From Prorocentrum cordatum (taxonomy: Eukaryota): a stretch of DNA of 55,273 bases. Shown here piece by piece: positions 7,370-32,449 of this stretch; positions within the stretch are counted from its first letter, which is position 1; each line of letters opens with the position of its first letter. The position numbers and the translations under genes are program-made. The notes beneath the pieces were generated by a model. The model was not told the DNA's origin. It saw nothing but the letters and a program-made list of their open reading frames with translations, and ran no database searches. The stretch is from positions 62,001-117,273 of the forward strand of contig CAUYUJ010000171.1 in the NCBI GenBank assembly GCA_963575745.1, in the 5' to 3' direction.

Positions 7370-8105
7370 GCAGCGCGAAGCCCAGCCCAGCTCTGCCGCG
7401 AGCTGCTCCGCCTCCGCCCTGGAGCTATCCGCTCTGATGTCGAACTCTAGGAGCGCCTTCCGCAAGGATGCCAGCGGCCCTCGCTCCGGGAACTCCCGCG
7501 GCGGCGGCCGCGGGATCAGCGCGTACCGCATGCGCGTGGCTCGGGAGAACATGCCGTAGAAGTGCAGCTACCGCTGGTCGTCCAACGTGCCCGCGCGGCC
7601 AGCGTCCTCGCCCTTCGCGCAGTCGATGGCGACGCCCTTGCGCGGCGTCTGGCCCCGCGACAGCGTAGAGGCGAGGCACGGCGCGCGCGTCGCGGTGAAC
7701 CCCGAGCGGCGAGCGGCGCGCGGTCCGAACTTTGCCGCGTGAGCTCCTGCCCACTGGGCCTGAACATCAGCAGGCTCCGCGCCCGCGCCTCGGCCTGGCC
7801 GTCGTCGTCGGCGCCTTCGGCGCTGTGTCGCAGCAGCTCGGCGACCTCCTGGTAGATCGGGGACTCCTTGAAGCCGTGCGCCTGCAGCCAGATCCCCTGC
7901 GGTAGGAAGCGGGGGCGAAAGAGCTGGCCTGGCGGGCACTCCTCGTGACGCTGCTCGTCCTCGGGGTGGAACTCGAAGGACGCGACGGTGTCCCGTTGCT
8001 CCTGCACGAGCCCGAACTTCTTCTTCAGCACTTCCTGCACTGCGGTGAATCGCACCTCCATGCCGGCGTGGGCGGCCAGTAAGACGCCGTGGATGCCCCC
8101 CCGTC
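7370..8105 (-). pseudogene. PIF1-family (SF1B, Helitron-type) DNA helicase C-terminal half, frameshifted
   Basis: GGIHGVLLAAHAGMEVRFT..KKKFGLVQEQRDTV (2B-domain pattern L.VGM.V.L...GLV...G.V); then RRSGFTATRAPCLASTLSRGQTPRKGVAID (motif V, SQGQTL..V.ID) and LHFYGMFSRATRM (motif VI, LYVALSR). Confidence 0.75.
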
Positions 8106-8154
8106 TAGCGCTTGTTCGGGACGCTCAGGAGGTGCATGTTCGGGGACGCGCAAC

Positions 8155-8595
8155 AGTGACGACAATTAGAAGGTTCCGATGACCCGCCTCGGATTATAAA
8201 CATGAGCTGCGGGCCCCATACGGCGGAAGCTCCCGCCTGATATCTCCTCGCAGCCTACACCCGCCTGATACTTCACCCATATTCAGGCCTCAGGGCCCCA
8301 AAAGTGACGACAGTTAAAAATTTTCCGATGACCCACTCGGATGACCAACGTGAGCTGCGGGCCCCACAAGGAGGGGGGGCCCGCTTCAGACTTCCCCGCA
8401 ATTCACTCACAGACGAGGCTCCCGCCCGAGACTTCCTTCATATTCGGGCCTCAGGAGCTCAAAAAACGTGTCGACAATTATAGGGTTCCGATGGCCCGCC
8501 CGGACTGCTAACGTGAACTGCGGGCCCCATGGGGAGGGGGCTCCCGCCTGAGACTTCCACGCAATTCACTCACAAACGAGGCTCCCGCCCGAGAC
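8155..8595. repeat. Three ~150-165-bp tandem repeats
   Basis: gaca.tta....ttccgatg.ccc...tga.ctgcgggcccca at ~8160, ~8308 and ~8473. Confidence 0.85.
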
Positions 8596-9469
8596 GACAC
8601 ACAGGCAAGTGATGGTGATGATGATGATGATGATGATGGTGATGCTGATGCTGGGGATTATGATGATGTGAATGGTGCTGATGGTGAGGATGAGGCAGGT
8701 GGTGATGATGGCGTGTGAATGATTGAGTGCGTGAGAGGGCCACACAGGGGAAGTGAGTGAGCCAGTGGGAGAATGAGTCAGTTATGCGTGAGTGAGGATG
8801 ATCGGGCGAGGGTGCGATGGTGATGTGAGTGTGCGGGTGTGAAACGAAAGAGGCCGGAGCGCCGGAGAGACCGTCATCAACAAAGACCGCTCTCCCTTGC
8901 AAAGTGAATGAGTAAGTCATTAGTGAATGAGGGTGATCGGCCGAGGGTGAGTAAGTGGACGACGATGAGGCTTGATGGTACTGATGCGAGAGTGGTAGTC
9001 ATGATGATGAGTAAGATGATAGTTGATGGAGATGAGGATGATGTGGTGATGATGAAAATCATATGATTATAGGAAGAGTGGGTGTGAAAATGAAAGGGTG
9101 TGGGAGGACTTCGCGAGGTGTCCAGAGAAAACAAAAAAACTTGGGATGTGGGGATAATCAAAAAGAAAATATGAAAATGCTGTGTTTCCCATGTTTTTGA
9201 TGTCGGAGGCTCAAGCAGTAGAAGAGCACAGCGTTTTCAGACTCCAAGGCTCCAAGACGATATGTCTTGAATTGTGTGTTGTACTTCCCGATGCCGGAAA
9301 CCTTGTAAAACACAACGTTTTCGAACTCTTGAGGCACACGCTGTGCTTTTATTTTTTAGCCTTCGACACCAAACACATTGAAAACACAAGACGTTTCACA
9401 CTTTCCACTGGTTTTCAATATTTTTGTTCTGTGTTTTTATTGCTCACCCGAGTTTCCTCCTCAGTACCC

Positions 9470-9720
9470 CTCCTCAAAGGAATCAGTGTATAATCCGCCA
9501 CTAAAGGCATCAATCTGGAATCCGCTACAAAAAGGCATCAGTTTGTGATCCGCCACAAATGGAATCCTTTGTGCAACTCGCTCCATAAAGCGAATGAAGC
9601 AATCCGCCACAACAGGAAACCTGTTGTAATCCGCCACAAAAGAGATCCGAGTGTAACGAACCCAAAAATGAATCAATGTGCAATCCGCCGCAAAAGGAAC
9701 TAACATGTAATTCGCCATCG
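9470..9720. repeat. ~30-45-bp minisatellite (atccgccaca core)
   Basis: Seven to eight atccgc(c/t)ac units. Confidence 0.8.
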
Positions 9721-9899
9721 AAGAAAGCTTCACTACCCAACGCTATCGCAAGAAGAAGAATACTCATTAAAAAGGCAAAACAAACAATGAAAGCGAAACA
9801 CCTAAAACAACACATCGCTAAATAGAACCAGAGTTTGACGCTACGGGGAGGAAGGGGCGGAGGAGGAGGAGGGGGAGGAGGAGGAGAAGGAGGAGCGCG

Positions 9900-10480
9900 C
9901 GCACCTCCCTTGTCTGCGCCATGTTGAATGCACATGGCCGCGCGCGCGGCTGCGCGCGCGTGCTTGATTTGAACTGGGTTCGCGGGGCCCTGCTGTCTCA
10001 GCAGAGGGCGGAGCCCGTGGTAGATGTGGAAAGCTAGCGCGAGCCTGTGGTGATATAGGAGGCGCCCATTCTCCAAACGCACCGGAGGGGACTCGGACAC
10101 GGGGGGGGACTCGGGTTGGAGTTCGGACGCCCCGCTCAGGTGGCGGCAAAAAATGTCGTCTTGGAGGGCACCGGGGGCCTCGCAACCGAAACGGCAGCGA
10201 CGTCGCGGAAGAATCCAAGCGCCCGCAAAAGACGTCACATGTGGCCGCGACCGACTGGGAGCTCCTCTGTACAACGACCCTCTGAGACTCCTCCAGCGGA
10301 GCCCAGGGACATGGGCCCAGGGGCGGACAGGCTGGGGAACCGCTTTGGGAGCCTCCGCGCTGTAAGATCAGGCACTCTGTCTGGGATGATCTGAAGCTGG
10401 ATGCTAAGGGAGAGCTGCAACTGTAATCGAGGAGGCTTCTTGTGGTCCAGAGCGTGCTGGGCAGCCGATTCAGCGGCGAG
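9900..10480 (-). pseudogene. LINE ORF2 C-terminal remnant (CCHC zinc-knuckle region), probably the displaced 3' end of the 13600-17262 LINE
   Basis: Translations LQLQLSLSIQLQ..DLTARRL..F followed by RRCRFGCEAPGALQDDIF and RLALAFHIYHGLR resemble LINE C-termini. Same strand as, and downstream of, the RT. Confidence 0.55.
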
Positions 10481-10994
10481 GCGGGTTTGTCTCAAGATCG
10501 GGGGAGGGAGGGGAAGAGGGGCGAGGGGTCCGAGTTCGAACGAGGGGGGAAGAAGGAGAAGGGCCGGGCAATTCCCGCGGCAACGCCGCCGGCGCTCCAG
10601 GGGCGCCCTCAGAGCCCCGCACGAGCGCGGCCCCAGCCTCGGGGGGTCTGCCCCGCCAGCCCCCACACGCACGCCAGCCCCATCGTCTGCAGAGGCTCTG
10701 GGGCCCTGGGCCGACGCAGCGACTGCAACTCGCGCGAAGCAAAGGGCGATGGGGGGAGGACGGAGCAATGTCAGCAGAGCGCGGGACTCAAGCCGCAGCA
10801 GGCGGGCAAGGGGGAGAAAAGAACTGGGCGGCGTACGTAGCACCCCGCAGTTGCGGGTAACAGTGAGGGGGCGGGCGCGGGCGACGCGGGCGTCGAGCCG
10901 GCGGACCTCGTGGCCCTCACCTTCCCTGTCGATGGCGCCCTCCTCTTCCTCCTCCTGCTCCTCCTCCTCCTTTTCCTCGTCCGCTTTGGCTTTT

Positions 10995-11768
10995 TCAGTG
11001 AACGTAGTTTGGGTCGCGGGTGGGTCGCGGGCTCTTCACCTCCACCTGGAAGGAATTTAAGAACAGCCCGCCGCAGGCCCCGAAAATTTTGATTTGTACA
11101 GTGAACGCGGTTCGGGTCGCAGATTCTGCACCTGGACCTGGAGCGAATGCAAAAGAAACCCGCCGCAGGCGCCGAAGTTTTGGCTTGTTCAGTGAACGTA
11201 GTTTGGGTCGCGGGTGGGTCACGGGCTCTCCACCTCCACCTGGAAGGGATACAAAAACAGCCCGCCGCAGGCGCCGAACATTTTGATTTGTACACTGAAC
11301 GCGGTTTGGGTCGTGGGTGGGTCGCAGGTTCTCCACCTGGAACGGATGCAAAAGAAGCCCGCCGCAGGCGCCGAAAATTTTGGGTGGGTCGCGGAGTGGG
11401 TCGCGGGTGGGTCGCGGGCGCGGTTTGGGTAGCGGGTGGGTCGCAGGTTCTCCACCTGGAACGAATGCAAAAGAAACCCGCCGCAATCGCCGAACATTTT
11501 GGGTAAGTCGCGGGGTGGGTCGCGGGTGGGTCGCGGGTGGGTCGCGGTGGGTCGCGGGTGGGTCGCGGGTGGGTCGCGGGTGGGTCGCGGGTGGGTCGCG
11601 GGTCGGGTGGGTCGCGGGTGGGTCGCGGGGTGGGTCGCGGGTGGGTGGGTCGCGGGTGGGTGGGTCGCGAAGTGGGTCGCGGGTGGGTCGCGGGGTGGGT
11701 CGCGGGTGGGTCGCGGGTGGGTCGAAGGGTGGGTCGCGGGTGGGTCGCGGGGCGGGTCGCGGGTGGGA
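10995..11768. repeat. Tandem ~120-190-bp repeats grading into a (gggtgggtcgc)n minisatellite, followed by (CAA)n
   Basis: Repeated gtgaacgtagtttgggtcgcgggtgggtc and ccacctggaa; 11-mer array at 11510-11768. Confidence 0.9.
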
Positions 11769-11827
11769 CGACGACAACAACGAACAACAAACAACAAACA
11801 ACAAACAACAAACAACAAACAACAAAC

Positions 11828-11866
<39 letters not shown>

Positions 11867-11956
11867 GCAGCAACACCGCCACCAACAACAACAACAACAA
11901 CAGCAACAGCAACACCACCAACAACAACAACACCACCAACAACAACAACACCAACA

Positions 11957-13460
11957 ATCATCTTAAGACTGTTCGCCCTTATCTGCTCGAGTGTCCAATA
12001 ACGTGTATTTCCCAAACCCTGGATACCCGCCCTCCCCGTCTTCGATCGAACCCCTTCTGGGGGGTATACCTTTCTTCCCTGCAGGCCAGGCCCCGGCAAG
12101 CGGCGGGGCGGCCGCGGATCGTCGGCCTGGCCAGCGGCAGCGCTGATCGGCGGATCGGCCGCGGACCGTCGACCCGACCCCCAAAGGGACGAACAGGGGA
12201 CCAACCACGACGAGGACGACGACGACGACGTCGACGACGACGGCGACGACGACGACGACGGCGACGACAACGACGAGCGAAAGCGAGAGCGAGAGAGAAC
12301 GACAGCAGGGCCACGACGGACACGAAGTAGGCCACGAAGCGCGACAGCGGGGACACGAAGAGAATACGTATGGGGCCACGAAGAGCGCGAACGAGCGGGG
12401 GTCACGAAAGGCAGATAATGCGGGGCCACAGAAGGCAACGATGGGGCCACTGAAGGTAGCAACTGGGCCACGTAGGACACTGAGGGGGCCACACACGGCG
12501 ACAGCGGGGCCACGAAGTGCATGCACGGGGCCAAAACGGGCGCGAACGAGCGGGGGCCACGCAGTGCATACGTATATTGGGCCGCGGAGGGCAAGAACGG
12601 GGCCACTGAGGGCAGCAACGGGGCCACGAAGGGCAGCGAGGGGGCCACGAAGGGCGACAGCGGGACCTCGAAGGGCATGCATATGGGGCAACCAAGGGCG
12701 CGAACGAGCGGGGGCCACGAAGGGCATACATATATGGGGCCACGAAGGGCAGCGAGGGGGCCACGAAGGGCTGCAACGGGGCCACGAAGGGCAGCGAGGG
12801 GTCCACGAAGGGCTGCAACGGGGCCACGAAGGGCTGCAACGGGGCCACGAAACAAAGCGATGGGGTCACGAAGGGCTGCAACGGGGCCACGGCTGCAACG
12901 GGGCCACGAAGGGCAGCGAGGGGGCCACGAAGGGCTGCAACGGGGCCACGAAACAAAGCGAGGGGGCCACGAAGGGGCCACGAAGGGCAGCGAGATCCCG
13001 ATTCCTGGGTAATCTGTGAGGGAATCCTAAGCGTGAGCGCGACTCCTGGGTGCCTGGGTGTCGGGAGCGCGGCGCTTGAGTAAATTGCAAGAAAGTCCAA
13101 CGCAAGGGCGCCGCTATTCTATAGTAAATTGCAAGCAAGTCTCCAGCGAGAGCGCGACTCCAGAGCGCCGGCAGAGCGATTCCTGAATAAATTGTAAGGA
13201 AGTCCCAAGCGAGAGCGCGATTCCGGAATAAAATGCGAGGAAGTCTTGGGCGGGAGCGGGGGTCCTGGCTAAATTGTAAGGAAGTCTCAGGCGGGAGCCG
13301 CTGTTGTTGTAAACCGGGGGCCAACGACACAGTTTGACCTTCAAGACTTTCCCTGATACAAAACAGGGTGCGAGCCCCGGGAAGGGCACTTCAATCGACA
13401 AAAAAACAATGTGCGCTGGACGGGGGGGATCAACAACAATTATTCTTCAGGAGTTCACCA
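11957..13460. repeat. Dispersed composite repeat, homologous to the tandem units at 53322-55273 (partial copy 26500-26805)
   Basis: Starts aatcatcttaagactgttcgccctt; contains a (GAC)n tract, an expanded ggggccacgaagggc array and aaattgtaaggaagtc repeats. Confidence 0.9.
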
Positions 13461-16027
13461 ACAAGAAGAATCCGCATCGCGGAATTCCGCTTCAGCCACG
13501 CACCCAGGGACAGTGAATGACCGTTCGGTTCAGCCCCCTCACTTTGACGACAGACAGGGAGGAATGAGCATCCTATACATCACATGACGCTCGCGTCGGT
13601 CGGCGATCGCGCGCCTGCAACCTGCCTGCATCTTGACCGCTACTTCTGGCCCCCAGGAACAAGATTGTCCTGGGGGGAGGCAACCGGTCCGAATTGGATA
13701 TCTACTCCGAGTTTCTTAATACGCGTCGGGGGGGCGTCACCCCCGCCGACAGCCCCACATCGACCCCCGTCGCGGGCAGCCACCGCGCGCCGAAGGCGCT
13801 CCGACCCCCGTCGCGGCGCGACGACGAGGCGAGGCTGACCCCCGTCGGGGGGGGGACCCCCCCCGCGCTTATCAAGAAACCCAGAGTAGGTATCCCGCCC
13901 AGGCAGCAAGGAGGAGGAGGAGGAGGAGGAGCAGAAGGAGGAGGGGGAGGAGGACGAAGAAGAGGAGAGGAGGCGGAGGCGGAGGAGGAGGAGGAAGACG
14001 AGGAGGAGGGGGAGGAGAAGGTGGAGGAGAGGTATCGCGCAGAAGCGGGGAACGTCAGAATCCGCCCAGGCAGGGCCGAGGCCACGCATGGCCTCGCGAA
14101 ATTCCCCCACCTCCGCGCCGCCAAGAACCCTCCGCGCGGGGACGAGACAGCACTTCTTTGGCCGGAGTTCGAGACGGGCCAACTCAGCAGCAGCTTCGAA
14201 GTGGGAGCAAGGGGAGCAAGGAGAGATCAGGGAGGGGGACGCCCAAGTCATCGGCGCAGGCACCAGCAGCGAGGAGAAGGGGGGAGTTGGAACGACCTGG
14301 CGCGTCCCTCTCGGGAGCCACGGGGCGGAGGCTGAACTGCGAGAGCCGCGTTGCCCTCCTCGCAAGCGGCGGTGATGCGGCGACAGACTGGGCCCGCCGC
14401 CAAGGCCCGCAGCGCGCCGCTCAGGGGACGTCCCTGAGGGGCCCCGCGAGAGATTTCAGAAAGACGGTGCCTCTTGGACCCAACCTTCAAGAAGCCGACA
14501 CTGTCTGACGCGAGCGCCCGAATCGCATTCACATACCTTCGGGGATTTGCACCTCAGGAGGGCAGCGCGGAACCACTGATTGGACATACTATGGAGCGCG
14601 GCTCGAATATCATATGAAGTAAAACTGGGACGACGCCCAGGAGCACCCTCACCAGTGCTGCTCAAGCGGGCCTCAGGCCTGAAAACAACCGTAACATAAC
14701 TTCACGCAAAGCACCTCCAGCTGATGGGACAGCCCTCCACGCGCTTCGCGGGGGGCGGTCAGGGCAAGGGGGGAGGCCCTCCAGCGTTTCAAAGCTCTCG
14801 CAGGATCTCCGGGGGCGGGGAGAGGGAGGTGGGGGGCGACGGTCAAGATATTGGGAGATGGCGGCCACAGAGCCCGACGCCGCCGCGAAAATGGGCTGCC
14901 AGCGGGGCCTGATCAGCGCGCCCATCCCGGAGGAGTCGCGGCAGACGGAGTCGACGCCGCTCTGCGCGTGCTTCAGGCTATTGAGAGCCAGGCGCCTGCG
15001 CGAAGGGTTCCACGCCAGCGCCTGCCGCAGCGACGTCTGGTAGATCTTCGCGCGCTCTGGAATGCCCGCAGGCGAGGCGTCGCCATGTGCCCGCCAGTCG
15101 CGAGCACGTCGGCCAGCAGCGCGAGCAGCCTCCAAGACAGCCCCCTCAAAGCGCAACTGGCTGGTGGCGAGCGTCGCATCGCGGAACTCGGCGGGGCGCG
15201 CGATGTAGACAGCGCCGTCCTCAGCGATGTCAGCGAAGCGCCCGGCGAGCGGTGGCGACCCACGAAGGCGGAGTGCGAGCCGAGCATCCTGACGCCACGC
15301 CGCCCGAGCGAACGCACCGCAGCGTCGCGCACTTCGGCTCGGCCGCCCTGGTGCCAGCAGGCGGCCGGATCCCTGTTTGAAGTTCGCCGCAAGTAAGACA
15401 GACCAGCGGCCAGGTGCATCGGCCCTTTTATGCGCAGCCACTTGGCGTCGGCGTCGAGCTCGTCCAACTTTGCGCCGCCGACGCAGTTCTGAAGAGTCTC
15501 GCGGCACTTGGGCCGCTTGAAATGAAGTTGGGGATCGAGCACATCTCATGCGACGGCGGCCGCTCGGGAGCGTGGTCTAACACGGCCCAGTCCGACAAGG
15601 CCTCTTGGATAACATCCACAGTGGCGTCGCAACCAGCAACAAAACGCGTGCACAGCGAAACGAAGAACCGATCAATCGCGCTCGAAGTCTCCGCGGAGCG
15701 AGTGTAGTGCGCGGGGAACGGACTCTCGAGCTTCATCATGCCGTAGCCGGACAGGTGACACAAGAAGGCTTCAACCTGAGACGCACGGCCATCGCAAGAC
15801 AATAAGATAATCTGGCCTGACGTCTCTGCGGGAAGAGTGAGGACTGGTCGACAGCGTCGCTCACGTTGAAGTCACCCACGTCGACGGCCAGGCGGGACAG
15901 CTCGCCATGCTGATCCCACGCCGCATTCTGATGCCAACAAGCGCGAGTGGGACCACGGGGTTCTCGTGGGATGTCGCAGGCTGTGCACGCTCGTGATCCT
16001 CACCTCTTTGCCCGTCGAGGGACTAGG

Positions 16028-16197
16028 TAGACGTCGTTAATTTCTAATCGTGCTCGTTTCTAATTGTGCTTGCTTCTAATTGTTCCTGGCCCCCTGGTGG
16101 CCAGGAAGAGGCCCAGGATAGAACACTTAGAAATGAAAGCATCTTTGCTACCAAAAAAACAAAACATGTTCGAATAATTAGAAATGAACAATGTGTA
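16028..16197. mobile_element. MITE family G, inserted in the LINE APE domain (second copy 24192-24361)
   Basis: Imperfect TIR tagacgtcgttaatttcta / tagaaatgaacaatgtgta. Shares the core gtggccaggaagaggcccaggatagaacacttagaaatgaaag with 24261-24303. Confidence 0.75.
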
Positions 16198-17245
16198 CGT
16201 CCATGGACAAGGATGTGATGATCCACCTGCGGGATCTGGTCAGAAGATGGTCGGTCGAGGGTGTCCTGAAAGCGCCAATGGAGGACGCTTGCGACGACAC
16301 CCTTTTCAGCCCGCACGTCATTGAAAACAGCACTCACGTCGCCCTCTTAGCACGGGAAGCCTCAGGAGAACAGGTTGCAGGTAATGCTGAACTGGTTGAG
16401 GAGAGAAGTGGGAATAATCTCGTGGCCATAGACGTCCTGGAGACAGAGGACGCGCCGTGAGAGAGGAATGCGCTCGATCTTCTGAAACGGTTGCCGTCGG
16501 CGCTTGTGCTTGTAGCAACAGAGACCACGTGCGTTCCAGCTCGCCACGCGGAGCTCTGGTGAGCCGCCACTGTCAACTCCTCATGGCCTGTCAACGTCCC
16601 GTGGCAGCCACCGCTCGTTTGGATAAGGTCTACGCAGGCGTGTCCACACACTGGAACTGTTGGCGGAATTGGTCGGCAAGCGCGGAGAAATTGATCTCGA
16701 GCTGAGTGGTGCCCTCAGGAGACACCGCGAGCTTAGTCGGGCCGTTGACGCCCTGGAGGACGACCTCCAGAATCGGGATCGAATTGGCGCTGATGCGCCT
16801 TTTCGCACGAAGGAATCGCCATTCATGCTGGGGCCTTACGCGCTGAAGAAGTCCGAGGAATCTCTTGCCCTGCATTTCTCGTCGAACTTACGTTGGACTT
16901 TTGTCGGGGTTGATGTAGAGCGCATCCCGGGTACCACTGACAGAGAGGGCCATGACGACGACACGTTTCTCCAGGGGGCTGAAGCTGCTGAGCCTGCCGC
17001 ACTGCGGGAACCACACCAGGCGCGCCCCCAGGGAGATGAAGAAAGAGAACCTTGCCAGGCGACTGCCCATTCAGCGTGTCCTGCTCGTCTGTGATGCTAG
17101 TGTCGGTGGCCCCGGGAGCGATGCCGTTCTTGAAATGTTTATTAATGGCGGGTTGTGCGCAGCCGATCCTTAAGATGCTCGGCTCGGGTGGCCTGTCGTA
17201 GTTGGCCAGGCGCGAGGTCGACAACTCCTGGAGCATCGTCGCGAG

Positions 17246-17262
17246 CTTGTGCCAAAAACAGG
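17246..17262 (-). other. Relict dinoflagellate spliced leader at the LINE 5' end
   Basis: Minus strand reads cctgtttttggcacaag, an 11/12 match to the SL 3' end ttttggctcaag. ATG follows 9 nt later. Confidence 0.55.
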
Positions 17263-18178
17263 AGGAGAAGAAGGAGGAGGAGGAGTAGGAGGAGAAGGAG
17301 GAGGAGGAGGAGGAGGGGGAGAGGGAGGAGGAGGAGGAGGAGGAGGAGGAGGAGGAGGAGGAGGATGGAGGAGGAGGGAGGGAGGAGGAGGAGGAGGAGG
17401 GCCGAGGAGGGCCGTCCTCCTCCTCCCTCCTCCTCCTCCTCCCTCCTCCTCCCCCAGGTCCATCTTCGAAGCGCACAGGCTGGAGCGGGAATCTCAAAGC
17501 ATCCTTGCGCGGCGCTTCGGTGAGAGCACCATGGAGGCCTGTCGCGCGCGGCCCAAACTCCGCAGGGACAGAGGGGATGCGAAATACGCGCAGATCCCCG
17601 ACGGAAGCGCCACGTTCTACGACATCTGCGGGGCGCTCGGAAGAGAGCGACATTTAGCCCGCTCGCGTGCAGTTCCCGCTACTAACGACTGGGCGAGCGA
17701 GAGATACGCGCAGCGCTCAAGCGGGAGCGCCACTTCCAAGCAACATCTGCGCGGCGCCTGCGCAAGAGCGACGTGTCGCCCGCTCGAGCACACGCCCCGA
17801 TGCCGACACGTGGACGAGCGAAAGGTACGCGCCGCTCCCAAGCGGGAACGCACATGTCGGAAACACGCGCGCGGTGCTGCCTGGGACGATGGCGACAGTT
17901 CGCTCTCTCGCGCGCGGCGCGCGCCGCGCCCCACGCGGGGGGGGGGGCAGGCTGGGCCGGGCCAGGTCAGGCAAGCCTCGAGCGCTACGTTCCTCCTCCT
18001 CCTCCTCCTCCTCCTCCTCCTCCTCCTCCTCCTCCTCTCTGCCACCCATGTTGCAGCATCGACGACGAAACGGCAACGTTGCAATGCAGCAGCTTCGCTC
18101 GCCCTCAACGGACCGGAGGGCCCTGCCCGCTCAGGATGGCCATCGGGGCGCAGGATAAGCGAGTGGGGCAATCTACCT

Positions 18179-18373
18179 TCGGGAGCGGCCAAGAGGGGGG
18201 TTTCCAAGAGGGGGGAGTGCAAATCATGGCCGGCGGCATGTGCGCGGCCCAGCGGGGGGGCCAGGGACGTACGTATTGAAATCAGAAGAGTTGCCATGAA
18301 ATCGAAGGAAAATCATGGCCCCCGCCATGATATCCACCCCCCCTAGTCATCACCCCCCTCTTTGCCGCCCCGA
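18179..18373. mobile_element. MITE family A, copy 2
   Basis: tcgggagcggccaagagggggg ... cccccctctttgccgccccga; no clear TSD. Confidence 0.85.
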
Positions 18374-18612
18374 TATCTGTGAGGAGCCAGGATAGGAGGA
18401 CAGGAGTAGGAAGAGGTCACATACCCTGTGGGACGAGCCTTGCAACCACATCTGTGGCTACTCATCGATTGGCAGGCTCGAAGGCAGGTTAACCCCGCCT
18501 GGCATGTACTGCCATATTGCCGAAGAGCTGCGCTCGGTGCAAGCAAAAAGCACGGCTTTCAAGGAAACGACTGATCATGAAAGCCGAGAGCAGCAAGGAG
18601 CGGAAAGAGGAA

Positions 18613-18794
18613 TACAGTCGAGGCCTTGACCTAAGGAACCCTAAATAAGGAACGAGAGGCCCCTTTTACCCATAAGATGAACTTCGGTTTCCTATCGAAA
18701 AGAGAAAGGAAACCTGAGGCAAGCTGTGAAATACTTAAGGAACGCGGAGCCCCTCCCCAACCAAAAGGGTTCCTTCTTCAGGGCCCCGACTGTA
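18613..18794. mobile_element. MITE family H (other copy 45803-45981 with a partial tandem copy at 45660-45795; related sequence at ~20086)
   Basis: TIR tacagtcgaggcc / ggccccgactgta; shared ttgacctaaggaaccctaa. Confidence 0.8.
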
Positions 18795-19257
18795 GGAGGT
18801 GGAATGCACTCGAGCAGACCGCCTGCGCTCTCGCACGCGCCCCCCCCCGCGACCGGAGCGCTCGCGGAGCGAGCCAGGCCTCCGCCCTGCGCGGCCGCCT
18901 GCCCGGGGCGGCTCGGCATTGCTGCGGCGCTTCATTACCCATCTGATCGTATGAAGCAGGGGAGCCTGGGCCAGCAGGTGGCGGGCAGGTCGATGCGTCA
19001 GACGGCGAGGGAACTTCCAGGCCTCGAAGATCGAGGGCCGAGACACGATGTGCAGGGGGGGCCTGGGCCAGCAGATGACGGGCAGTTCGATACGCCAGAC
19101 CGCGAGGAAGCGTCCAGGCCTCGAAGCTCGAGGGCCGAGGTCCGACGTTTCTCGCCGTCTCCGGCCCCTGCTGTGGCCTCTGGAAGCCCCGTCCGACAGC
19201 ACACACCCACAGCCCCCCCCCCCGAATTCCACCCCGAGATATCTGGGGGGGCGCATA

Positions 19258-19468
19258 TCGGCGGCGAGCGAGCGAAGGGGGGAAATGAGAAGGAGAAGGC
19301 CTTCTCAGAAGGCGGAGGCTCGGAAGTCCCCTGGCCGTCAGACAAGTGTTCTAAGCAGTCCCCGACGAGACAGACAACTTTTCGGAAGGCGCGAGGGCTT
19401 CCGAGAAGTCCCGCCGCCCTCTGAGAAGGCCTCGTCCTTCTCGCATTCCCCCCCTCGCTCGCCGCCGG
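19258..19468. mobile_element. MITE family J, copy 1
   Basis: TIR tcggcggcgagcgag / ctcgctcgccgccgg; 5-bp TSD gcata. Confidence 0.8.
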
Positions 19469-21633: not shown

Positions 21634-22034
21634 TCGGCGGCGAGCGAAGGGGGGAAATCCGGGGGCGCGCAAGCATGGATTAGCGATCCATGGATTTGGC
21701 GCGCGGTCGCCAAATCCATGGAGCGGGGGAGGTGCCCTCCCCAAAATGCGGCTGGTGGCGCCTCGCTCGGCGGCGGCAATCAACGATGTCCTATGGAAAC
21801 GGGAACCGTCGCTAATCCGCGCCCCCCTTAATCCATGTTTGCGATCGCTTGAGACATGAGACGGGGCGGGCCGTCTCGGAAGGCTCGGAGGCCCCCGCGG
21901 CCTACTGAGAAGTTGTCTGAGCCTTCCCAGAAGACACCGAAACATATCTCGGAAGGCGCGAGCGCTTCCGAGAAGTCCCGCCGCCTTCTGAGAAGGCCTT
22001 CTCCTTCGCACCCTTCCCCCTCGCTCGCCGCTGG
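21634..22034. mobile_element. MITE family J, copy 2, with a nested palindromic element at 21659-21852
   Basis: 5-bp TSD ctgtc. The nested element (gcaagcatggatta / taatccatgtttgc) is flanked by gaaat/gacat and is absent from copy 1. Confidence 0.8.
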
Positions 22035-22849
22035 CTGTCGGGTAGGGACAAACTGGCCCCAGGGAAAGGGTCGAGATCCCTGGGGGGCCACGTCACGAAC
22101 CAAAAATAGCGACGTCGGAGGAGCGGGGATATCGCAGTCCTCTCGCTACAACCAGGCGTTCGAAAAGTGGGAATAGGGGGGTCAGAGGAAAATTGCGATG
22201 GGCAGCCCCTGAGTGGAGGAAAGAGGCTCCAAGGGGCTCCCAAGAGGCTCCCATGATGCCCCCAAAAGGCCCCCAAGAGGCTCCCAAGAGGGGGCCAAGA
22301 GGCCTCAAAACTGCTCCCGAGAGGCCCCTGGGTCAGCGCGAAGGATCCTGCAAAGACCCTGCGGGATCCTGCACGCTTTCCATGCTGACTCGTTTTTTGA
22401 CGGCCCCTGGGCCCGGCGAGGGCCCCTCGAGGCCGAAAAATGCGAAAAACCTACGTCTTGATGTTTTCAATACGTTGGATCTCTGGGCAGGCTCCTGCAA
22501 GAGCGGGCGCCCTGGCGGACCGCCCCCGCTCGCACCGGCCCCCGCCTCCTATGGGCTCCTGGCCCTGGGCTCGGCCCGTCCCGCCGGCCGCCCGGGAAGG
22601 GGCCCCGCAGACAGCTCCTCCTCTCCTCCTCCTCCTCCTCCTCCTCCTCCTCCTCCTCCTCCTCCTCCTCCTCCTCCTCCTCCTCCTCCTCCATCTCTCC
22701 TCTCTCCTCCTCCTCCTCCTCCCTCCTCCTCGTCCATCTCCTCCTCCTCCTCCTCCTCCTCCTCCTCCTCCTCCTCCTCCTCCTCGTCTTCGTCCTCGTC
22801 CTCGTCCTCGTCCTCCTCCCTCCTCCCTCCTCCTCCTCCCCCCCAAAAA

Positions 22850-23965
22850 CGGCTCGAGATAGCCTCCAAGACGGCCAAGACGGACTCCAAGTTCGCCCAG
22901 GATGGTCCCAGGTGGCCTCGAAAGACGACGGTCCGAGGGCGTCCAAGCTGTCTACAAGCTCGCCTCGGGAGCCTCCCAGACGGCCCAAGATGGCCCCAAC
23001 GAGGTCTCCAAGACGGCCCAAGACGGCCCCCAGGAGGTCTCCAAGATGACCCAAGAGGACCCCAAGATGGCCTCCAGGAAGGCCCGAAGAGGCCAAACAT
23101 CACTGATGTTCCTTAAGTTGTTTGGACAAATGTTGCCATTTGCTTCTTTTCGGCCTTCCGACGGCCCGACATGGCCCAAGAGTCCGCAAAGATCACCCCA
23201 AGATCGCCCACGAGTCCTCCAAGATGGCCCCAGAACGGCCCGAGATGCCCCCAAGACGGCCAAAAGAGGGCCCCAAGACGGCCCAAGAGGCATCCAAGAC
23301 GCCCCAGATGGCCTCCAAGACGGCCCTGGAGCACCCTAAGAGAGCCCCAAGTCGACCCAGAGAGGCCCCCCAAACGGCTTCCCACAACGTCAGACGGGCC
23401 AGGAGGCCGTCAAGACGGCCCAAGATGGCTCTAAGATGGCCCAAGACGGCCCAAGAGGTCCCCCCAAGAGGTCTTCAAGACGGCCCAAGAGGTCCCCAAG
23501 ATGGCCTCCAAGGCCCCAAGAGGCCAAGGTCACTGATGTGTCTTGATTTGTTTGTTGACGGATTTTGGCATTTGCTTCTTTTCGGCCTTCCGACGGCCCG
23601 AAACGGCCCACGAGCCCGCAAAGATCGCCCCAAGATCGCCCAAGAGGCCTCCAAGATGGCCCCAGAACGGCCCAAGAGGCCCCCAAGACGGCCCCAAGAC
23701 GGCCCAAGAGGCCTCGAGCATGCCCAAGATGGCCTCCAAGACGGCCCTGTAGCACCCTAAGAGAGAGTCCCAAGTCGGCCCAGAGAGGCCCCCAAGACGG
23801 CTTCCCACAACGTCAGACGGGCCAGGAATGCCCCAAGACGGCAAAAGAAGCCTCCGAGAAGCCCCCAAGGCCCCCAAGAGGCCCAAGGAGGCCCCCAAGA
23901 TGCTTCCAAGAGGCTCCCAGGAAGCTCCCAGCAGGCCCCAAGAGTGCCCCCAGAAGCTTCCCAGA
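22850..23965. repeat. ccaaga(c/t)ggc-type satellite-like family (also 22225-22330, 29040-29365, 44020-44110; inverted at 38725-39460)
   Basis: Dense ggcccaagacggccc / gcctccaagatggcc motifs, with a ~430-bp internal duplication. Confidence 0.85.
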
Positions 23966-25789
23966 TGCCCCTCCTCCTCCTCCTCCTCCTCCTCCTCCTC
24001 CTCCTGATCTTCCCCGCCATCCTCCCCCAAGCGTCCCCCGAAGGGTTTCTACAACGGCTGGGGGAACACATGGTCCTATAGCTTGGCAGAGCTCTTACCA
24101 CACCGCTCGGCCACACGGCCGATCCCAGGAGGCAGGGGGTGGCGGTGATTCGCCGTAGGCGTCTTCGATACCAGCCTCCGGATGGATTTGCTACACGTCG
24201 TTCATGTCTAATCGACCTCATTTCTAAGCGTGCTCGTTTCTAATTGTTCCTGGTCCCGTAGTGGCCAGGAAGAGGCCCAGGATAGAACACTTAGAAATGA
24301 AAGGATCTTGGCCCCCAAAAAGACCAAAGAACTTTCGAATGATTCGAAATGACCGAATGTACCTAAACCTCACCATCTTAGGCCGCCCCCACCTGCAAGA
24401 ATTCCCGGAGCAAGCCTCGCATTCCTTCTGGACCCTGGCGTGCCGGGAAGCGAGGCCACGACTGGGGAAGCCCAAAGCACGCCACCAAATCCCTGCGAGG
24501 TCCCCCGACGTAGGCTCCACGGGTCGGGTCCCCACGAGCCTCCTCCTCCTCCTCCTTCTCCTCCTCCTCCTCCTCCGACTCTTCTCTCCTCCTCCTCCTC
24601 CTCCTCCTCCTCTTCTTCTTCTTCTTCTTCTTCGTCCTCCTCCTCCTCCTCCTCCTCCTCCCTCCTCCTCCTCCTCCTCCTCCTCCTCCTCCCTCCTCCT
24701 CCTCCTCCTCCTCCTCCTCCTCCTCCTCCTCCTCCTCCTCCTCCTCCTCCTCCTCCTCCTCCTCCTCCTCCTCCTCCTCCTCCTCCTCCCCTCCTCCTCC
24801 TCCTCCTCCTCCTCCTCCTCCTCCTCCTCCTCCTCCTCCTCCTCCTCCTCCTCCTCCTCCTCCTCCTCCTCCTCCCTCCTCCTCCTCCTCCTCCTCCTCC
24901 TCCTCCTCCTCCTCCTCCTCCTCCTCCTCCTCCCCACGAAAAGAAAGCGGCACGCACTCTCCACGCGGTCTCTCCCGAGCTGCGCATCGAAGCTGCCCAG
25001 TTCCAGCATCCAGACAGGAATAATGCCAGTCGGACTGCGCACGGGAATGCTGTTCCCCACTGGTGTCCCACATTGCCAACGAGGGGAGACACCAGCTGCC
25101 ACGGTGGCAAGACGCATGCCTGAAGGTGTGCAGAGGAGGAACAAAAATACCCTTGCGTACCCCTGCGGCAGAAGACCCTAAACAGCTTTATGCTTTATAC
25201 GGCTTCGATGGGGACCACGATGGAGGTTTACGATGGGGGGCCTACGGGGGGCCACGGGAAAAACCAGGAGGCCGCGTCGCCCCAACCGGATTCCGCATCG
25301 GGCAGTCCGCCGATCCGCTCCGAGGAGCAGTTGCACAGCACCCTTGCAGGCAACCTGCCAGGTGGAGGAGGAGGAGGAGGAGGAGGAGGAGGAGGAGGAG
25401 CAGAAGGAGGAGCAGAAGGAGGAGGAGGAGGGAGGAGGAGGAGGAGGAGGCTCAGGGAGGAGAAGGCGAGGCGAGGAGGAGGGATGGCGGCGAAGGGTGG
25501 AGAGCGGAAGAGCGGAGGAGGGGTGAGGGTGCCGTGCGCCTGCTGCTGCTCCTCCTCCCAGCTTCTCTTACTTCTCTTCCTCCTCCTCCTCCTCCTCCTT
25601 CTCTTCCTCCTCCTCTTCCTCGTCCTCCTTCTGATATACCGTCGCACTCCTCCTCCTCCTCCTCCTCCTCCTCCTCCTCCTAATCCTGTTTCTTCGTCTC
25701 CTCCCCCCCTCCCCCAAGCATCCTCGTCCCTTTTTTTTTTCTCCTCGCCACCATCCTCCACCCATCACCCACCTCCCCCCCCGGGGCAG

Positions 25790-29364: not shown

Positions 29365-29382
29365 CTCTCTCTTTCTCTTTTT

Positions 29383-29433
<51 letters not shown>

Positions 29434-30181: not shown

Positions 30182-30394
30182 TTTGGACGCCCGACATGGG
30201 TACCGAAAGAATGGGTACGATGCCCAACAACAAATGTTGTCCCAAGCCAACAGCGGCCGCTGTTGGGCAGGCGGCCTTCTGTCTCGAATGGACACAGGCC
30301 GCGGCGGCGCGGACAGCGGATTTTGTTCAAAATGAACAGGAACTGCTGTTGGGCACCGTACCCATTGTTTCCGTGCCCATCTCGGGCGTCCAAA
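30182..30394. mobile_element. MITE family B, copy 1
   Basis: ~47-bp imperfect TIR starting tttggacgcccga; homologous to 34283-34502. Confidence 0.85.
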
Positions 30395-31252
30395 ACGAGG
30401 AGGGCCAGCGGGGAGTCGAACTGTGCTTCGCCCTCGTGCGTCCGAGTTTGGCAAGGCCCCTTCCCCGGTCGCCCGCGCCGCCGCCGCGTCGCCGCCGTCG
30501 CGGCGGGCCGCTCCTGGCTGGACGTGGGCCGCCGGGGCCTCGCACGGCGCGGCGGCCGCCCGCGCCTTCGCCCCGCGGGCGCAGCGGCGCGGGCGCGGTC
30601 GCGGGGGCGACGGTGACGGGCAGAGCGCCGCGGGGAGGCCCGCGGGGCAAGCGGCGCGCGACGCTCCGTCGGCCGGCGGCGGCGCCCCGCGACGGCGCGG
30701 CCGCGCGGCCTGCCCCCGAGAGGGGGGATGGCCGCATCGTGAGGAAGACGCTCGCGAAGCGGCCCGCGCAGAGGAAGACGGCGAAGACTTCGCGCGAGGC
30801 GCGGAACGAAGACGGCGACATCTCGGGAGGGGAGACTCGTGGCGAGCATGACGTTGAAGGACTTGCACAAGATGAGCGACGAGAGCATCGTGGACGTGCT
30901 GATCGGCGACGGCGTTCTGCAGGACATGACTGGACGGCAGTGCTCTTGCTGCGGGCGCGGCGCCCCCGGACCTCTCAAGCTATTTGAAGGACGGGGCAGG
31001 CGGTGCAGGCGCGGCGCGAAGAAGCGCCAAAAGCTGGTCCTGCCGCGCGCCGAGCACTTGATCTCCAAGGTCGGGAATGGGCCCCAACAGACCCCTCTCC
31101 AAGATCGGGCGGCGGCGGTGCACTGCGCCATCCCGAGCGCCCCCCCAGTCCACGGCCCACTGCCTGACAGGCCCGAGGCACAAGACGATCGGGGACATCT
31201 GCCGCGCGAGCGACATGGCCCGCAGCCTCTGCGCGCGGGAGATGGAGAAGTC

Positions 31253-31425
31253 TAAAACAGGGCTAGGATCGGGATAAATTGCTCCAGAGCGTTCCGGAGC
31301 GCTCTCAGAGCGTTCCGGAAAGCTCTGGAGCGGCCGCGGCGCCCAATACATCCTCCAAACCCGCCGATTCTCAGAGATTTCGAGCTATCCCGATCCGATT
31401 TTGTCCCGATCTTCGCGTCGTTTTA
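31253..31425. mobile_element. TIR element D, inserted in the Merlin transposase
   Basis: Ends taaaac / gtttta; 5-bp TSD aagtc. Removal restores the in-frame sequence EMEKSVEVG. Confidence 0.85.
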
Positions 31426-31609
31426 AAGTCCGTTGAGGTCGGCAGTGAATCGGGCAACGGGACGCGGCGCGACGTCGAGGCGGACCGGACGAGGTCGACC
31501 TCGAGAAGGCCATCGTCGGTGACGACGGCCCGCCGCCGCAGGAAGCCACGGCGGCTCGGGAGCAGTGGTGCGGCGTTCAGTAGCGGGGGGGGGTCCGCGC
31601 GCGCTTATC

Positions 31610-31803
31610 TCGGGAGCGGCCAAGAGGGGGGTGTCCAAGAAGGGGGGGTGCAAATCATGACCGGCGGCATGTGCGCGGCCCAGCGGGGGGGCCAGGGACG
31701 TAATGAAATAAGAAGGGGCGCCATGAAATCTGGGGAAAAATCATGGCCCCCGCCATGATATCCACCCCCCCCTAGTCATCACCCCCCTCTTTTCCGCCCC
31801 CGA
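31610..31803. mobile_element. MITE family A, copy 3, inserted in the Merlin transposase
   Basis: Same TIRs; 7-bp TSD gcttatc (31603-31609 and 31804-31810). Confidence 0.9.
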
Positions 31804-32449
31804 GCTTATCTTGACGCAGCCCGTTCCGCGGGCGCCCGGGCCAGGGAGAAGTTTGCGCGGAAGCACCTCCAGAGCCGCAGCGTCGCTCTCCACGCGGGCG
31901 GCGCCCGCACCTGCAAGCTCAAGATATCCGGGATGATTCGCGACCGCGTGGTTCACGCGAAGAAGAAGAAGCCGAAGGACCAGAAAGGGAGCCCAGTCAA
32001 GCGCTACGGGAAGGCCGCGGACCCCCCCCCCGAAGCACGCCCAATAATTCAAGCACATCGCCCCTGGAATGCAAAGGGCGGCGATGTGCATGGGGGGCGC
32101 GCGGGTGGTCGACCGCTTCCGGCAGCTTCTGCGTGGCTACCTGAAGTGCAGGTCTGGGGCCGTTGGCAGCGCGCCCTTGCGGAATCGCATTCGGTCTGAT
32201 CATCGGCGGGCCCATTGGCATCGGGAGGGCGACTCGTAGTCAAAGGCGGGCGAGATGCCGAAGCTTCTGGGCACGCGAGCGCAGCCTCGCGGCGGGGCAT
32301 CGGCATCGCCCGCGCGCGGGCGGCAGCGCAGACGATCGGCGTCGTCGCAAGGCGCAGGCGTTAGCATGGAGAGGGGCCCGCTGTTGCAGGACATTGGATT
32401 GCGCCGATCTGCGCATGGGAAGGGCGCGAAATGCTCCAATGATTTCGGG

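What the first reader, a model, noticed from the sequence alone, without database searches (positions are those of the whole stretch)
7370..32275. Directional T:A->C:G hypermutation of transposon remnants (reverse of RIP and CpG decay)
Seen: in three unrelated families, departures from expected motifs are nearly all explained by T->C or A->G on the coding strand, often creating CpG. RT (VL)QGCPLSG reads APQGRPLSG. PIF1 SQGQTL reads SRGQTP. Merlin HTDG..Y reads HAGG..C, and expected Trp codons read Arg (DRFR). These regions are crowded with cgcgcg runs. Established: neutral decay usually drifts toward AT, and dinoflagellates replace part of their T with 5-hydroxymethyluracil (5hmU). Inference: a repeat-targeted, GC-directed mutagenesis (5hmU:G mispairing, biased repair or GC-biased conversion) could act as genome defence and create methylatable CpGs. 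The ancestral motifs are recalled consensus sequences, not alignments.
Basis: partly seen in the sequence, partly recalled or inferred. Interest (0 to 1): 0.8.

Follow-up and report, generated by a model that had tools for sequence, protein, structure and literature searches.

The report
Dead transposon helicase gaining CpG sites
Only one of the three supposed transposon remnants is demonstrably real, a dead helicase gene fragment, and it has decayed mainly by T-to-C changes that create CpG, but it has changed no faster than its relatives and neighbouring repeats do not share the pattern, so it looks like a family-specific repair or conversion bias, not a genome-wide defence by hypermutation.

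Summary
All four motifs stand where stated. Only the "PIF1" one lies in a provable remnant. Window 7379-8100 (-) is the C-terminal part of a Helitron-type PIF1-like helicase, with one frameshift and one stop. The RT call rests on a language-model lead only. The Merlin motifs occur at chance frequency.

For the helicase I polarised changes against DNA of three close relatives plus outgroups. The window lineage has 24 AT>GC against 6 GC>AT changes at codon positions 1+2; the relatives together have 17 against 28. TpG/CpA>CpG hit 13 of 67 sites at risk (19%); the other three transition classes hit 2-6%. Other decayed copies repeat this (35 of 345 against 22 of 484).

It is not hypermutation: 46 private changes against 41 and 44 in two relatives. 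It is not repeat-wide: another repeat family 4 kb away gives 16 AT>GC against 42 GC>AT transitions, a tandem repeat 38 against 33 changes, and paralogue contigs are symmetric. CpG is undepleted across the whole window (o/e 0.95).

Best reading: a CpG-favouring biased repair or conversion acting on this GC3-rich family, exposed once protein constraint was lost. A 5hmU-based defence is not supported.

The parts
7379..8100 (-). Dead C-terminal fragment (about 240 codons) of a Helitron-type PIF1-like helicase gene. GC 0.706; GC1/GC2/GC3 are 0.725/0.504/0.898.
   Evidence: tblastn places P0003 residues 121-250 on 8100-7696 and residues 243-358 on 7726-7379, in a different frame. There are 28 relatives, 5 of them with PF05970. 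Distant long members carry Helitron_like_N. No N-terminal part and no second copy occur in the window. Composition.
7696..7741 (-). Zone holding the frameshift that splits the helicase reading frame.
   Evidence: The two tblastn segments overlap here in different frames. One paralogue contig shows insertions at 7711 and 7712 and a deletion at 7724 relative to the window (table 4).
7568..7570 (-). In-frame stop TAG where relatives have the second Trp of the conserved WW (TGG>TAG).
7643..7660 (-). SRGQTP, the decayed form of the family's conserved SQGQTL (CAG>CGG and CTG>CCG, both creating CpG).
14251..14553 (-). 101-codon ORF holding APQGRPLSG. A possible, unproven reverse-transcriptase remnant, single-copy in the runs laid.
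   Evidence: No HMMER support. Atlas lead to RVT_1-bearing clusters, score 0.91. QG.PLS was reached by 23 of 200 shuffles and PQG.PLS by 4 of 200. Depth about 0 over 14008-15759.
31759..32196 (+). ORF holding HAGG..C and DRFR. The Merlin transposase call is not supported.
   Evidence: No Pfam match at E<=5 and no PDB match at E<=10. Motifs at chance frequency. The nearest Atlas clusters are POP1_N, but recognition is low.
11900..13460 (.). Copy A of a three-copy repeat family (B 53270-54340, C 54320-55273). Used as a comparator inside the finding's span.
   Evidence: 872 ungapped columns at 90-93% identity. Private transitions in A: 7 AT>GC against 19 GC>AT, with TpG-class 2 of 84.
39747..41814 (.). 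Three tandem copies of a 700-bp unit, used as a comparator. CpG o/e is 1.55 in 40001-42500.

Best explanation
The span holds one demonstrable transposon-gene remnant: the dead 3' part of a Helitron-type PIF1-like helicase gene.

Its lineage is shared in part with at least four other decayed copies found in other assemblies. That lineage has lost protein constraint, because replacement sites change as fast as silent ones. It changes mainly by T>C at TpG on either strand (TpG or CpA to CpG). Its total divergence is the same as that of sister lineages.

The most likely cause is a GC- and CpG-favouring bias in mismatch repair or gene conversion (gBGC type: T:G mismatches beside G resolved to C:G). 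I take it to act on this GC3-rich family in general. The same preference shows at silent sites of intact relatives, where C outnumbers T about 12 to 1 at third positions before G. In dead copies it becomes visible as odd amino acids (L>P, Q>R, H>R, W>R, M>T, V>A).

Shown: direction, dinucleotide context, replication in other copies, absence of any rate excess, and absence from two neighbouring repeat families.
Inferred: the mechanism, and that it is a fixation or repair bias, not a raw mutation bias.

It is not a repeat-wide hypermutation and there is no sign of a defence role.
For: Family.

Four-lineage DNA polarisation over 225 codon columns:
- Window private changes: 24 AT>GC, 6 GC>AT and 4 neutral at positions 1+2; 0, 7 and 5 at position 3. 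Outgroups back 22 of the 24 AT>GC calls.
- L001: 3:3 and 0:11. L002: 6:16 and 4:7. L009: 8:9 and 1:15.
- Window 24:13 against sisters 22:61, Fisher p=1e-4.
- Branch totals: 46 against 23, 41 and 44.

Context:
- Window transitions: TpG-class 13 of 67, other A/T 6 of 106, CpG 4 of 127, other G/C 5 of 237.
- Sisters pooled: 3.5%, 2.5%, 2.4% and 3.4%.
- Only the TpG class differs between window and sisters (p=1e-4).

Neutrality: position 1+2 changes 34 of 428 sites (7.9%), against position 3 changes 12 of 199 (6.0%).

Replication in 9 protein-only copies, using L001 codons:
- TpG-class 35 of 345 against other A/T 22 of 484 (p=0.002).
- Unique sites without the window: 25 of 83 against 19 of 125 (p=0.015).
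- 14 sites are hit in two or more copies, 10 of them TpG-class, in a pattern that does not fit one tree.

Silent sites of intact L001: C3pG1 85 (o/e 1.14) against T3pG1 7 (o/e 0.64). L002 57:6, L009 56:8. Low-GC3 outgroup L004 25:38. GC3 is 0.80-0.92 in all six close relatives.

At the protein level, window-specific departures run 14:5. P0003 gives 17:5, P0005 9:1 and P0029 6:2. All 28 other family members pooled give 96:114.
Against: Sister lineages L002 and L009 carry frameshifts relative to P0003 yet show no AT>GC excess at positions 1+2 (6:16 and 8:9). So 'any dead copy of the family' is not enough.

Why the bias should follow this family is unexplained. Repeat family A/B/C lies 4 kb away, and the tandem repeat also has partners for conversion, yet neither shows it.

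The most recent, window-only differences from paralogue contigs run the other way. In the remnant, 4 rows have G/C in the window and A/T elsewhere, against 7 the reverse. Over all 40 best-supported rows the counts are 13 against 20.

Third positions are 96% G/C, so they cannot measure the rate ratio. Four of the 5 sister AT>GC calls there are contradicted by outgroups.

Counts are small (about 20 events in the window, about 60 in other copies). Copies share ancestry, so events are not fully independent.

No recombination, polymorphism or methylation data were available. No whole genome is held.
Confidence: 0.55

Rival explanations
1. First reader's reading. A base-modification-linked mutagenesis is aimed at this transposon family. 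Examples would be 5hmU mispairing with G, or a modification-dependent glycosylase that turns T into C at TpG. It would act as or alongside silencing, raising GC and making methylatable CpG.
For: The bias is family-specific, not regional. It is restricted to one dinucleotide class. The same sites recur in several copies. 5hmU is enriched in repeats in two dinoflagellates (PMC11572971 and PMC11071213, passages).
Against: There is no excess of total change over sister lineages (46 against 41-44). Two other repeat families in the window lack the bias. The reported 5hmU context is TA and TC, not TG (PMC11572971 passage). A. carterae has repeat-enriched 5hmU but a genome less GC-rich than its genes. 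The newest window-only changes are mostly GC>AT. 'Mispair' occurs 0 times in either 5hmU paper.
Confidence: 0.12
2. Plain neutral relaxation. The dead copy simply drifts to the window's background composition (about 60% GC, CpG o/e about 0.95), with no special bias. The AT>GC excess arises only because codon positions 1+2 start below that level.
For: The window is 0.599 GC with undepleted CpG throughout. The 700-bp tandem implies an equilibrium near 0.62. The spectrum from paralogue contigs is symmetric: 248 against 218, 173 against 162, 248 against 213 and 242 against 212 places in four runs. Starting GC at positions 1+2 was 0.57.
Against: An equilibrium of 0.60 is rejected for the window lineage (24 of 37 events against 0.413 expected, p=0.003). 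0.70 gives p=0.08 and 0.80 gives p=0.59. The excess sits in one dinucleotide class, 19% against 6% for other A/T sites (p=0.011; 13 of 49 against 5 of 85, p=0.001). The tandem does not show that contrast (0.101 against 0.095).
Confidence: 0.12
3. The pattern is not real. It would come from ascertainment by the first reader, wrong ancestral states (parallel CpG loss in the relatives read as CpG gain here), or non-independence of copies.
For: Misinference at CpG sites is a known trap (PMC2631073 passage). The copies share ancestry. Counts are small.
Against: Polarity at replacement sites is anchored by residues conserved in 28 family members and by outgroup nucleotides (22 of 24). The test covered all 225 columns, not just the motifs. 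The result repeats without the window copy. p=1e-4 survives correction for about 40 lineage-by-class comparisons.
Confidence: 0.07
4. Sequencing or assembly artefact. Modified bases (5hmU, 5mC) would be miscalled as C or G in the assembly.
For: Modified bases are abundant in dinoflagellate DNA (PMC11572971 passages). The changes are T>C on both strands.
Against: A contig from run X3 is identical to the window over 7928-8122, which holds three of the AT>GC changes. A contig from run X1 is identical over 14663-14914 (table 8). The same derived residues occur in proteins from other assemblies (P0003, P0005, P0066, P0073). I could not check whether these runs are independent of the assembly's own data.
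Confidence: 0.03

Closest known systems
Episodes of GC-biased gene conversion in coding sequence. Examples: the mouse Fxy gene after its move into the pseudoautosomal region, and human accelerated exons (PMC2631073, passages read; PMC12290510, listing and start of abstract only).
   Same: A lineage-specific cluster of AT>GC changes, many altering conserved amino acids, against an otherwise GC>AT-biased background (Fxy: 28 of 28 replacement substitutions AT>GC). No selection is needed.
   Different: Here the sequence is a dead transposon gene fragment. The bias follows the sequence family, not the chromosomal neighbourhood. It is concentrated at TpG>CpG. No link to recombination could be tested.
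GC enrichment of multigene families by ectopic (non-allelic) biased conversion (PMC2720389, PMC3924838 and others, search listing only).
   Same: Repeated copies exchange sequence and the G/C allele wins. Derived states are shared between copies in a pattern that does not fit one tree.
   Different: Conversion tracts were not shown here. Two other repeat families in the window do not gain GC.
RIP of fungi and CpG decay of methylated repeats (recalled, not read here).
   Same: A directional, dinucleotide-specific change in repeated DNA.
   Different: The direction is opposite (TpG>CpG, not CpG or CpA>TpG or TpA). There is no excess of total change. It is not general to repeats. CpG transitions here are no faster than other G/C transitions (32 of 1573 against 75 of 2574).
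Helitron-type Rep/PIF1-like helicase proteins.
   Same: The remnant aligns with the C-terminal helicase half of this family. Relatives carry PF05970, and distant long members carry Helitron_like_N.
   Different: The window copy lacks the N-terminal ATPase part and any Rep domain, and it is broken.

Membership tests
PIF1-like (Helitron-type) helicase | Significant sequence similarity to proteins that carry the PIF1 domain PF05970 | tested here: met
   P0003 E=7e-41 and P0004 E=3e-37. Of 28 relatives, 5 have PF05970 precomputed. My own scan of 10 long members found PIF1 in 6 and Helitron_like_N in 2.
PIF1-like (Helitron-type) helicase | PF05970 ATPase domain present in this copy | tested here: not met
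   No Pfam match in the window ORFs or the read-through. Homology is confined to 7283-8100. The copy is a 3' fragment.
PIF1-like (Helitron-type) helicase | Conserved C-terminal blocks (SQGQTL, WWLHLYVMFSRAT, LLLRPPPRE) recognisable | tested here: met
   Aligned. The window carries SRGQTP, R*LHFYGMFSRAT and LIPRPPPRE.
Reverse transcriptase (RVT_1) | Profile match to an RT family | tested here: not met
   No match at E<=5 or E<=10 on the read-through. No PDB RT at E<=10. Only an Atlas feature lead.
Reverse transcriptase (RVT_1) | Catalytic Y/F-x-D-D box downstream of the QG.PLS block | tested here: not met
   No Y.DD or F.DD match near 14 kb in any frame. The translation shows none.
Merlin (IS1016-like) DDE transposase | Profile match to a DDE transposase family, or motifs beyond chance | tested here: not met
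   No Pfam or PDB match. HAGG 3 seen against 2.4 expected, DRFR 1 against 0.74, H..G....[CY] 13 against 12.6.
Repeat-targeted hypermutation (RIP-like, reversed) | Excess of total change in the affected copy over sister copies | tested here: not met
   46 private changes against 23, 41 and 44.
Repeat-targeted hypermutation (RIP-like, reversed) | Acts on repeated DNA in general | tested here: not met
   Family A/B/C 16 against 42. Tandem 38 against 33. Paralogue contigs symmetric.
Repeat-targeted hypermutation (RIP-like, reversed) | Directional, dinucleotide-specific spectrum | tested here: met
   TpG-class 13 of 67 against 2-6% for the other classes.
GC-biased gene conversion or biased mismatch repair | AT>GC excess among fixed changes irrespective of coding effect | tested here: met
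   24:6 at replacement positions in a copy evolving neutrally. Other copies repeat it.
GC-biased gene conversion or biased mismatch repair | Older or shared changes more AT>GC-rich than young private ones | tested here: inconclusive
   Shared among six copies: 14:5. Window-only against paralogue contigs in the remnant: 4:7. The sister stems are not AT>GC-rich.
GC-biased gene conversion or biased mismatch repair | Link to recombination or conversion tracts | not testable with these tools
   No genome, map or population data. The only hint is a non-tree-like sharing of sites.

The most novel reading that the evidence does not exclude
In this GC-rich dinoflagellate-like genome the usual hierarchy of point changes is inverted in a transposon gene family. 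T>C at TpG is the fastest class and CpG loss among the slowest. A modification-linked repair activity could cause this by resolving T (or oxidised T) opposite or beside G towards C:G. Such an activity would explain how a lineage with default CpG methylation keeps CpG undepleted at 60% GC. It would also make transposon genes gain CpG as they die.
Probability: 0.18. Interest if true: 0.7.

Novelty: new variant of a known kind. Interest (0 to 1): 0.45.

Why it matters
If the CpG-creating bias is general in this organism, it would help explain two features: the highest GC contents among dinoflagellates, and the lack of CpG depletion in a group whose relatives methylate nearly every CpG.

It also carries a practical warning. 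In such genomes dead genes drift towards Arg, Pro, Ala and Gly codons. Odd 'motif variants' can therefore look like directed mutation. Tests for selection on transposon or duplicated genes would be misled in the same way.

As it stands, the evidence covers one family and about 80 events.

Tried and rejected
- Pfam on 281 ORFs of 110 aa or more across the whole window found no RT, helicase or transposase. 14 of 145 had weak unrelated matches below cut-off, and 0 of 136 matched at 1e-4.
- P0003 alone has no Pfam match at E<=1 and no helicase match in PDB sequences at E<=1.
- Earlier notes of this scan: nothing near the window, nothing by sequence for the three loci, nothing for hypermutation words. 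A look-up for 'GC3' gave only other genomes.
- Sequencing runs: the best holder has 0.16 of the words, and no RNA holder is listed.
The shorter stretch 7000-24500 was laid, so the Merlin locus was never covered. Only 40 of 899 difference rows were shown.
- An amino-acid-only test for changes that always create CpG gave 7 of 30 against 10 of 59 across the subfamily (p=0.57). It was too weak to show the context effect.
- Widening the alignment to 178 sequences mixed in distant homologues. It showed only that bias tracks GARP content (rho 0.37, p=0.015) and not the degree of departure.
- Splitting the sister branches into shared and unique changes gave no consistent trend.
- Literature searches for dinoflagellate plus GC-biased gene conversion, CpG depletion, or mutational bias found no paper reporting a polarised substitution spectrum. 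I read only listings, plus passages of PMC11114475.
- The POP1_N lead for 31759-32196 has no HMMER support.

Full report
**What is in the window**

The window is 59.9% GC, with local values of 0.50-0.69. CpG is not depleted anywhere: o/e is 0.95 overall, 0.90 in the finding's span, 0.85 to its left and 1.05 to its right.

It is dense in microsatellites, satellites and dispersed repeats. None of 281 ORFs of 110 codons or more gave a credible Pfam match. No whole genome is held.

Earlier notes of this scan call the genome a GC-rich marine protist, probably a dinoflagellate. I did not test that. A passage of PMC11114475 gives 59.7% as the highest GC described for a dinoflagellate genome.

**The observation**

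Their meaning differs by locus.

*Helicase.* The read-through of 7205-8104 (-) hits two proteins at 73% and 69% identity. Both read SQGQTL and DDQWW where the window reads SRGQTP and DDQR-stop.
- tblastn maps P0003 residues 121-250 to 8100-7696 and residues 243-358 to 7726-7379 in another frame. So the copy has a frameshift, one TAG stop and no N-terminal part.
- A second search found 28 relatives, 5 with the PIF1 domain. An exhaustive search found 365 cluster representatives at E<=0.001.
- Of 10 long members I scanned, 6 have PIF1 and 2 have Helitron_like_N.
This is the C-terminal half of a Helitron-type helicase.

*RT.* The RT motif lies in a 101-codon ORF (14251-14553, -).
- It has no HMMER support: Pfam at E<=5, and at E<=10 on the read-through; none of 8000 scored candidates at E<=0.1; PDB sequences at E<=10.
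- It has essentially no paralogue depth in four runs.
- 24 of 30 nearest named Atlas clusters carry RVT_1 in a minority of members, at score 0.91. PQG.PLS was reached by only 4 of 200 shuffles.
- It may be a very old RT remnant, but nothing can be polarised there.

*Merlin.* The motifs occur at chance frequency and no search supports a transposase.

*CG runs.* (CG)3+ runs are not enriched in the span: 32 of 82 in 45% of the window.

**Polarising the helicase changes**

*Protein level.* I aligned the two window frames with the 28 relatives. I took as ancestral any residue shared by at least two of the four closest relatives and by the majority of the rest, or unanimous in at least three of the four closest.
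- Of 161 such columns, 30 had changed.
- 27 resolve to one nucleotide step: 18 T>C or A>G transitions (10 and 8), 1 AT>GC transversion, 6 GC>AT and 2 neutral.
- At columns conserved in 70% or more of the other sequences, the window departs 14:5 (AT>GC: GC>AT). P0003 gives 17:5, P0005 9:1 and P0029 6:2. All 28 other sequences pooled give 96:114.

*DNA level.* A scan of metagenome contigs with alignment A2 returned 43 loci.
- Three independent close lineages cover the remnant: L001 (intact 478-codon ORF, 84% nucleotide identity to the window), L002 and L009. All have GC3 of 0.85-0.91.
- I used the 225 codon columns present in all four lineages and dropped P0003 positions 238-250 around the frameshift. 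A change was counted as private when the other three agree.

| Lineage | Pos. 1+2 AT>GC : GC>AT | Pos. 3 AT>GC : GC>AT | Total private changes |
|---|---|---|---|
| Window | 24 : 6 (4 neutral) | 0 : 7 (5 neutral) | 46 |
| L001 | 3 : 3 | 0 : 11 | 23 |
| L002 | 6 : 16 | 4 : 7 | 41 |
| L009 | 8 : 9 | 1 : 15 | 44 |

- Outgroup nucleotides support 22 of the window's 24 AT>GC calls.
- Window 24:13 against sisters 22:61 gives p=1e-4.
- The window's total of 46 is no larger than L002's or L009's, so there is no hypermutation.
- Replacement and silent positions change at similar rates in the window (7.9% and 6.0%), as expected for a dead copy.

**Dinucleotide context**

Using the three-of-four consensus for context:

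| Transition class | Window | Sisters pooled |
|---|---|---|
| TpG/CpA > CpG | 13 of 67 (19.4%) | 3.5% |
| Other A/T > G/C | 6 of 106 (5.7%) | 2.5% |
| CpG loss | 4 of 127 (3.1%) | 2.4% |
| Other G/C > A/T | 5 of 237 (2.1%) | 3.4% |

- Only the first class differs between window and sisters (p=1e-4).
- The protein-anchored count gives the same picture: 13 of 49 against 5 of 85 (p=0.001).
- Misreading parallel CpG loss as CpG gain is a known trap (PMC2631073 passage). It is unlikely here, because polarity at these sites rests on residues conserved across the family.

**Replication**

L001 is near the centre of the subfamily. P0005 and P0004 are about 90% identical to its product. I used L001's codons as ancestral at the 257 of 478 residues where L001, L002 and L009 agree.

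I scored the 9 of 36 proteins that are 70% or more identical to L001. P0009 was left out because it is L002's own product.
- Pooled amino-acid-changing transitions: TpG-class 35 of 345, other A/T 22 of 484, CpG 5 of 461, other G/C 20 of 723 (TpG against other A/T, p=0.002).
- Counting each site once and leaving the window out: 25 of 83 against 19 of 125 (p=0.015).
- The strongest single copies are P0003 (14 of 83 against 9 of 125), P0066 (5 of 19 against 1 of 41) and P0073 (7 of 34 against 4 of 31).
- Fourteen sites are hit in two or more copies, ten of them TpG-class. The combinations do not fit one tree, which points to recurrent change or exchange between copies.

**Is it a property of repeats, or of the place?**

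No, on three counts.
- Repeat family A/B/C (872 ungapped columns). Copy A sits inside the span, 4 kb from the helicase. Private transitions run 7:19, 7:11 and 2:12 (AT>GC: GC>AT), with TpG-class at 2, 1 and 0 of 84.
- The three 700-bp tandem copies give 38:33. TpG sites change at 0.101 per site against 0.095 for other T/A. CpG sites change at 0.041 against 0.074 for other C/G.
- Contigs of four public runs were laid at 80% likeness on 7000-24500. Places where the window has A/T and others G/C number 248, 173, 248 and 242. The reverse number 218, 162, 213 and 212.
  - Of the 40 best-supported rows, where nearly all other copies differ from the window, the window holds G/C in 13, A/T in 20, and 7 are neutral.
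  - Six of the 15 window GC>AT transitions are ordinary CpG losses. One of the 9 AT>GC transitions makes a CpG.
  - Within the remnant the rows run 4 against 7.

So the newest, window-only changes look conventional. The CpG-gaining changes are older and largely shared with other copies.

**Mechanism**

*Plain drift to the window's background composition is not enough.* An equilibrium of 0.60 GC is rejected for the window lineage (p=0.003). 0.70-0.80 is not. Drift also would not pick out TpG.

*The family's silent sites point the same way.*
- GC3 is 0.80-0.92 in all six close relatives.
- At the silent third-position/first-position boundary, intact L001 has 85 CpG (o/e 1.14) against 7 TpG (o/e 0.64). 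L002 has 57:6 and L009 56:8.
- Low-GC3 outgroups have the usual excess of TpG, for example L004 with 25:38.

I therefore read the remnant as a copy in which loss of protein constraint exposes replacement sites to a C-over-T preference before G. That preference already shapes unconstrained sites in this family.

The most economical cause is biased resolution of T:G mismatches to C:G, in heteroduplexes between copies or alleles or after misincorporation. This is the gBGC type of process that produced 28 of 28 AT>GC replacements in mouse Fxy (PMC2631073 passage). This step is inferred, not shown.

*Weak points.*
- L002 and L009 carry frameshifts but no such bias.
- I cannot say why two other repeat families are spared.
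- Third positions are 96% G/C and cannot measure the rate ratio.

*The 5hmU idea fares poorly.*
- The passage I read says 5hmU prefers TA and TC in C. cohnii.
- In A. carterae, 5hmU is enriched in repeats, yet the repeat-rich genome (44.8% GC) is less GC-rich than its genes (54.6%).
- Neither 5hmU paper mentions mispairing (PMC11572971 and PMC11071213, passages only). Their supplements were not seen.

*A base-calling artefact is unlikely.* A contig of another run is identical over 7928-8122, and the same derived residues occur in proteins from other assemblies.

**Verdict**

The headline interpretation is not supported. That covers repeat-targeted hypermutation acting as a defence, and 5hmU as its cause.

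I found no paper reporting such a spectrum in dinoflagellates (searches; listings and a few passages only). I file it as a new variant of a known kind, of moderate interest. It rests on about 20 events in the window and about 60 in other copies.

Noticed in passing
whole window; 39747-41814; 11900-13460 with 53270-55273; 7379-8100: CpG is not depleted (o/e 0.95). In all DNA-level sets together, CpG sites change by transition no faster than other G/C sites (32 of 1573 against 75 of 2574, p=0.09). This is unexpected if this organism methylates CpG by default, as the dinoflagellates in PMC11572971 and PMC5890265 do.
   Followed up: partly
L001 residues 272-474 (window 7379-8100 and proteins P0003, P0005, P0066, P0073): Fourteen derived sites are shared by two or more decayed copies in combinations that do not fit one tree. 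The window shares some with P0003 and others with P0005, while P0003 and P0005 share others again. This suggests exchange between copies or recurrent hits at the same TpG sites.
   Followed up: partly
window 8168-8751, 11088-13423, 19264-19847, 22768-23935: These stretches have very high summed contig depth in four public runs (up to about 48,000 in X1 and 69,000 in X2). They are high-copy repeats of unknown kind flanking the helicase fragment.
   Followed up: no
window 40001-42500: A 700-bp unit in three tandem copies has CpG o/e 1.55 and many (CG)3-4 runs. The middle copy has no private transitions at all.
   Followed up: partly
window 31759-32196 (+): The nearest Atlas clusters are the N-terminal domain of RNase P/MRP subunit POP1 (score 0.95, 184 shared features). 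Recognition is low and there is no HMMER support. It could be an exon of a real gene or low-complexity resemblance.
   Followed up: partly
window 6009-6569, 20321-20578, 24539-24933, 46020-47048, 49187-50247: Long degenerate trinucleotide arrays (CCT, ATC and CAT, up to about 350 units) give multi-frame ORFs of 300-450 codons that are not genes.
   Followed up: no
L001 (2090 nt, ORF 140-1573): A metagenome contig carries an intact 478-codon member close to the centre of the subfamily. It may be near the active master element of the window's dead copy.
   Followed up: partly
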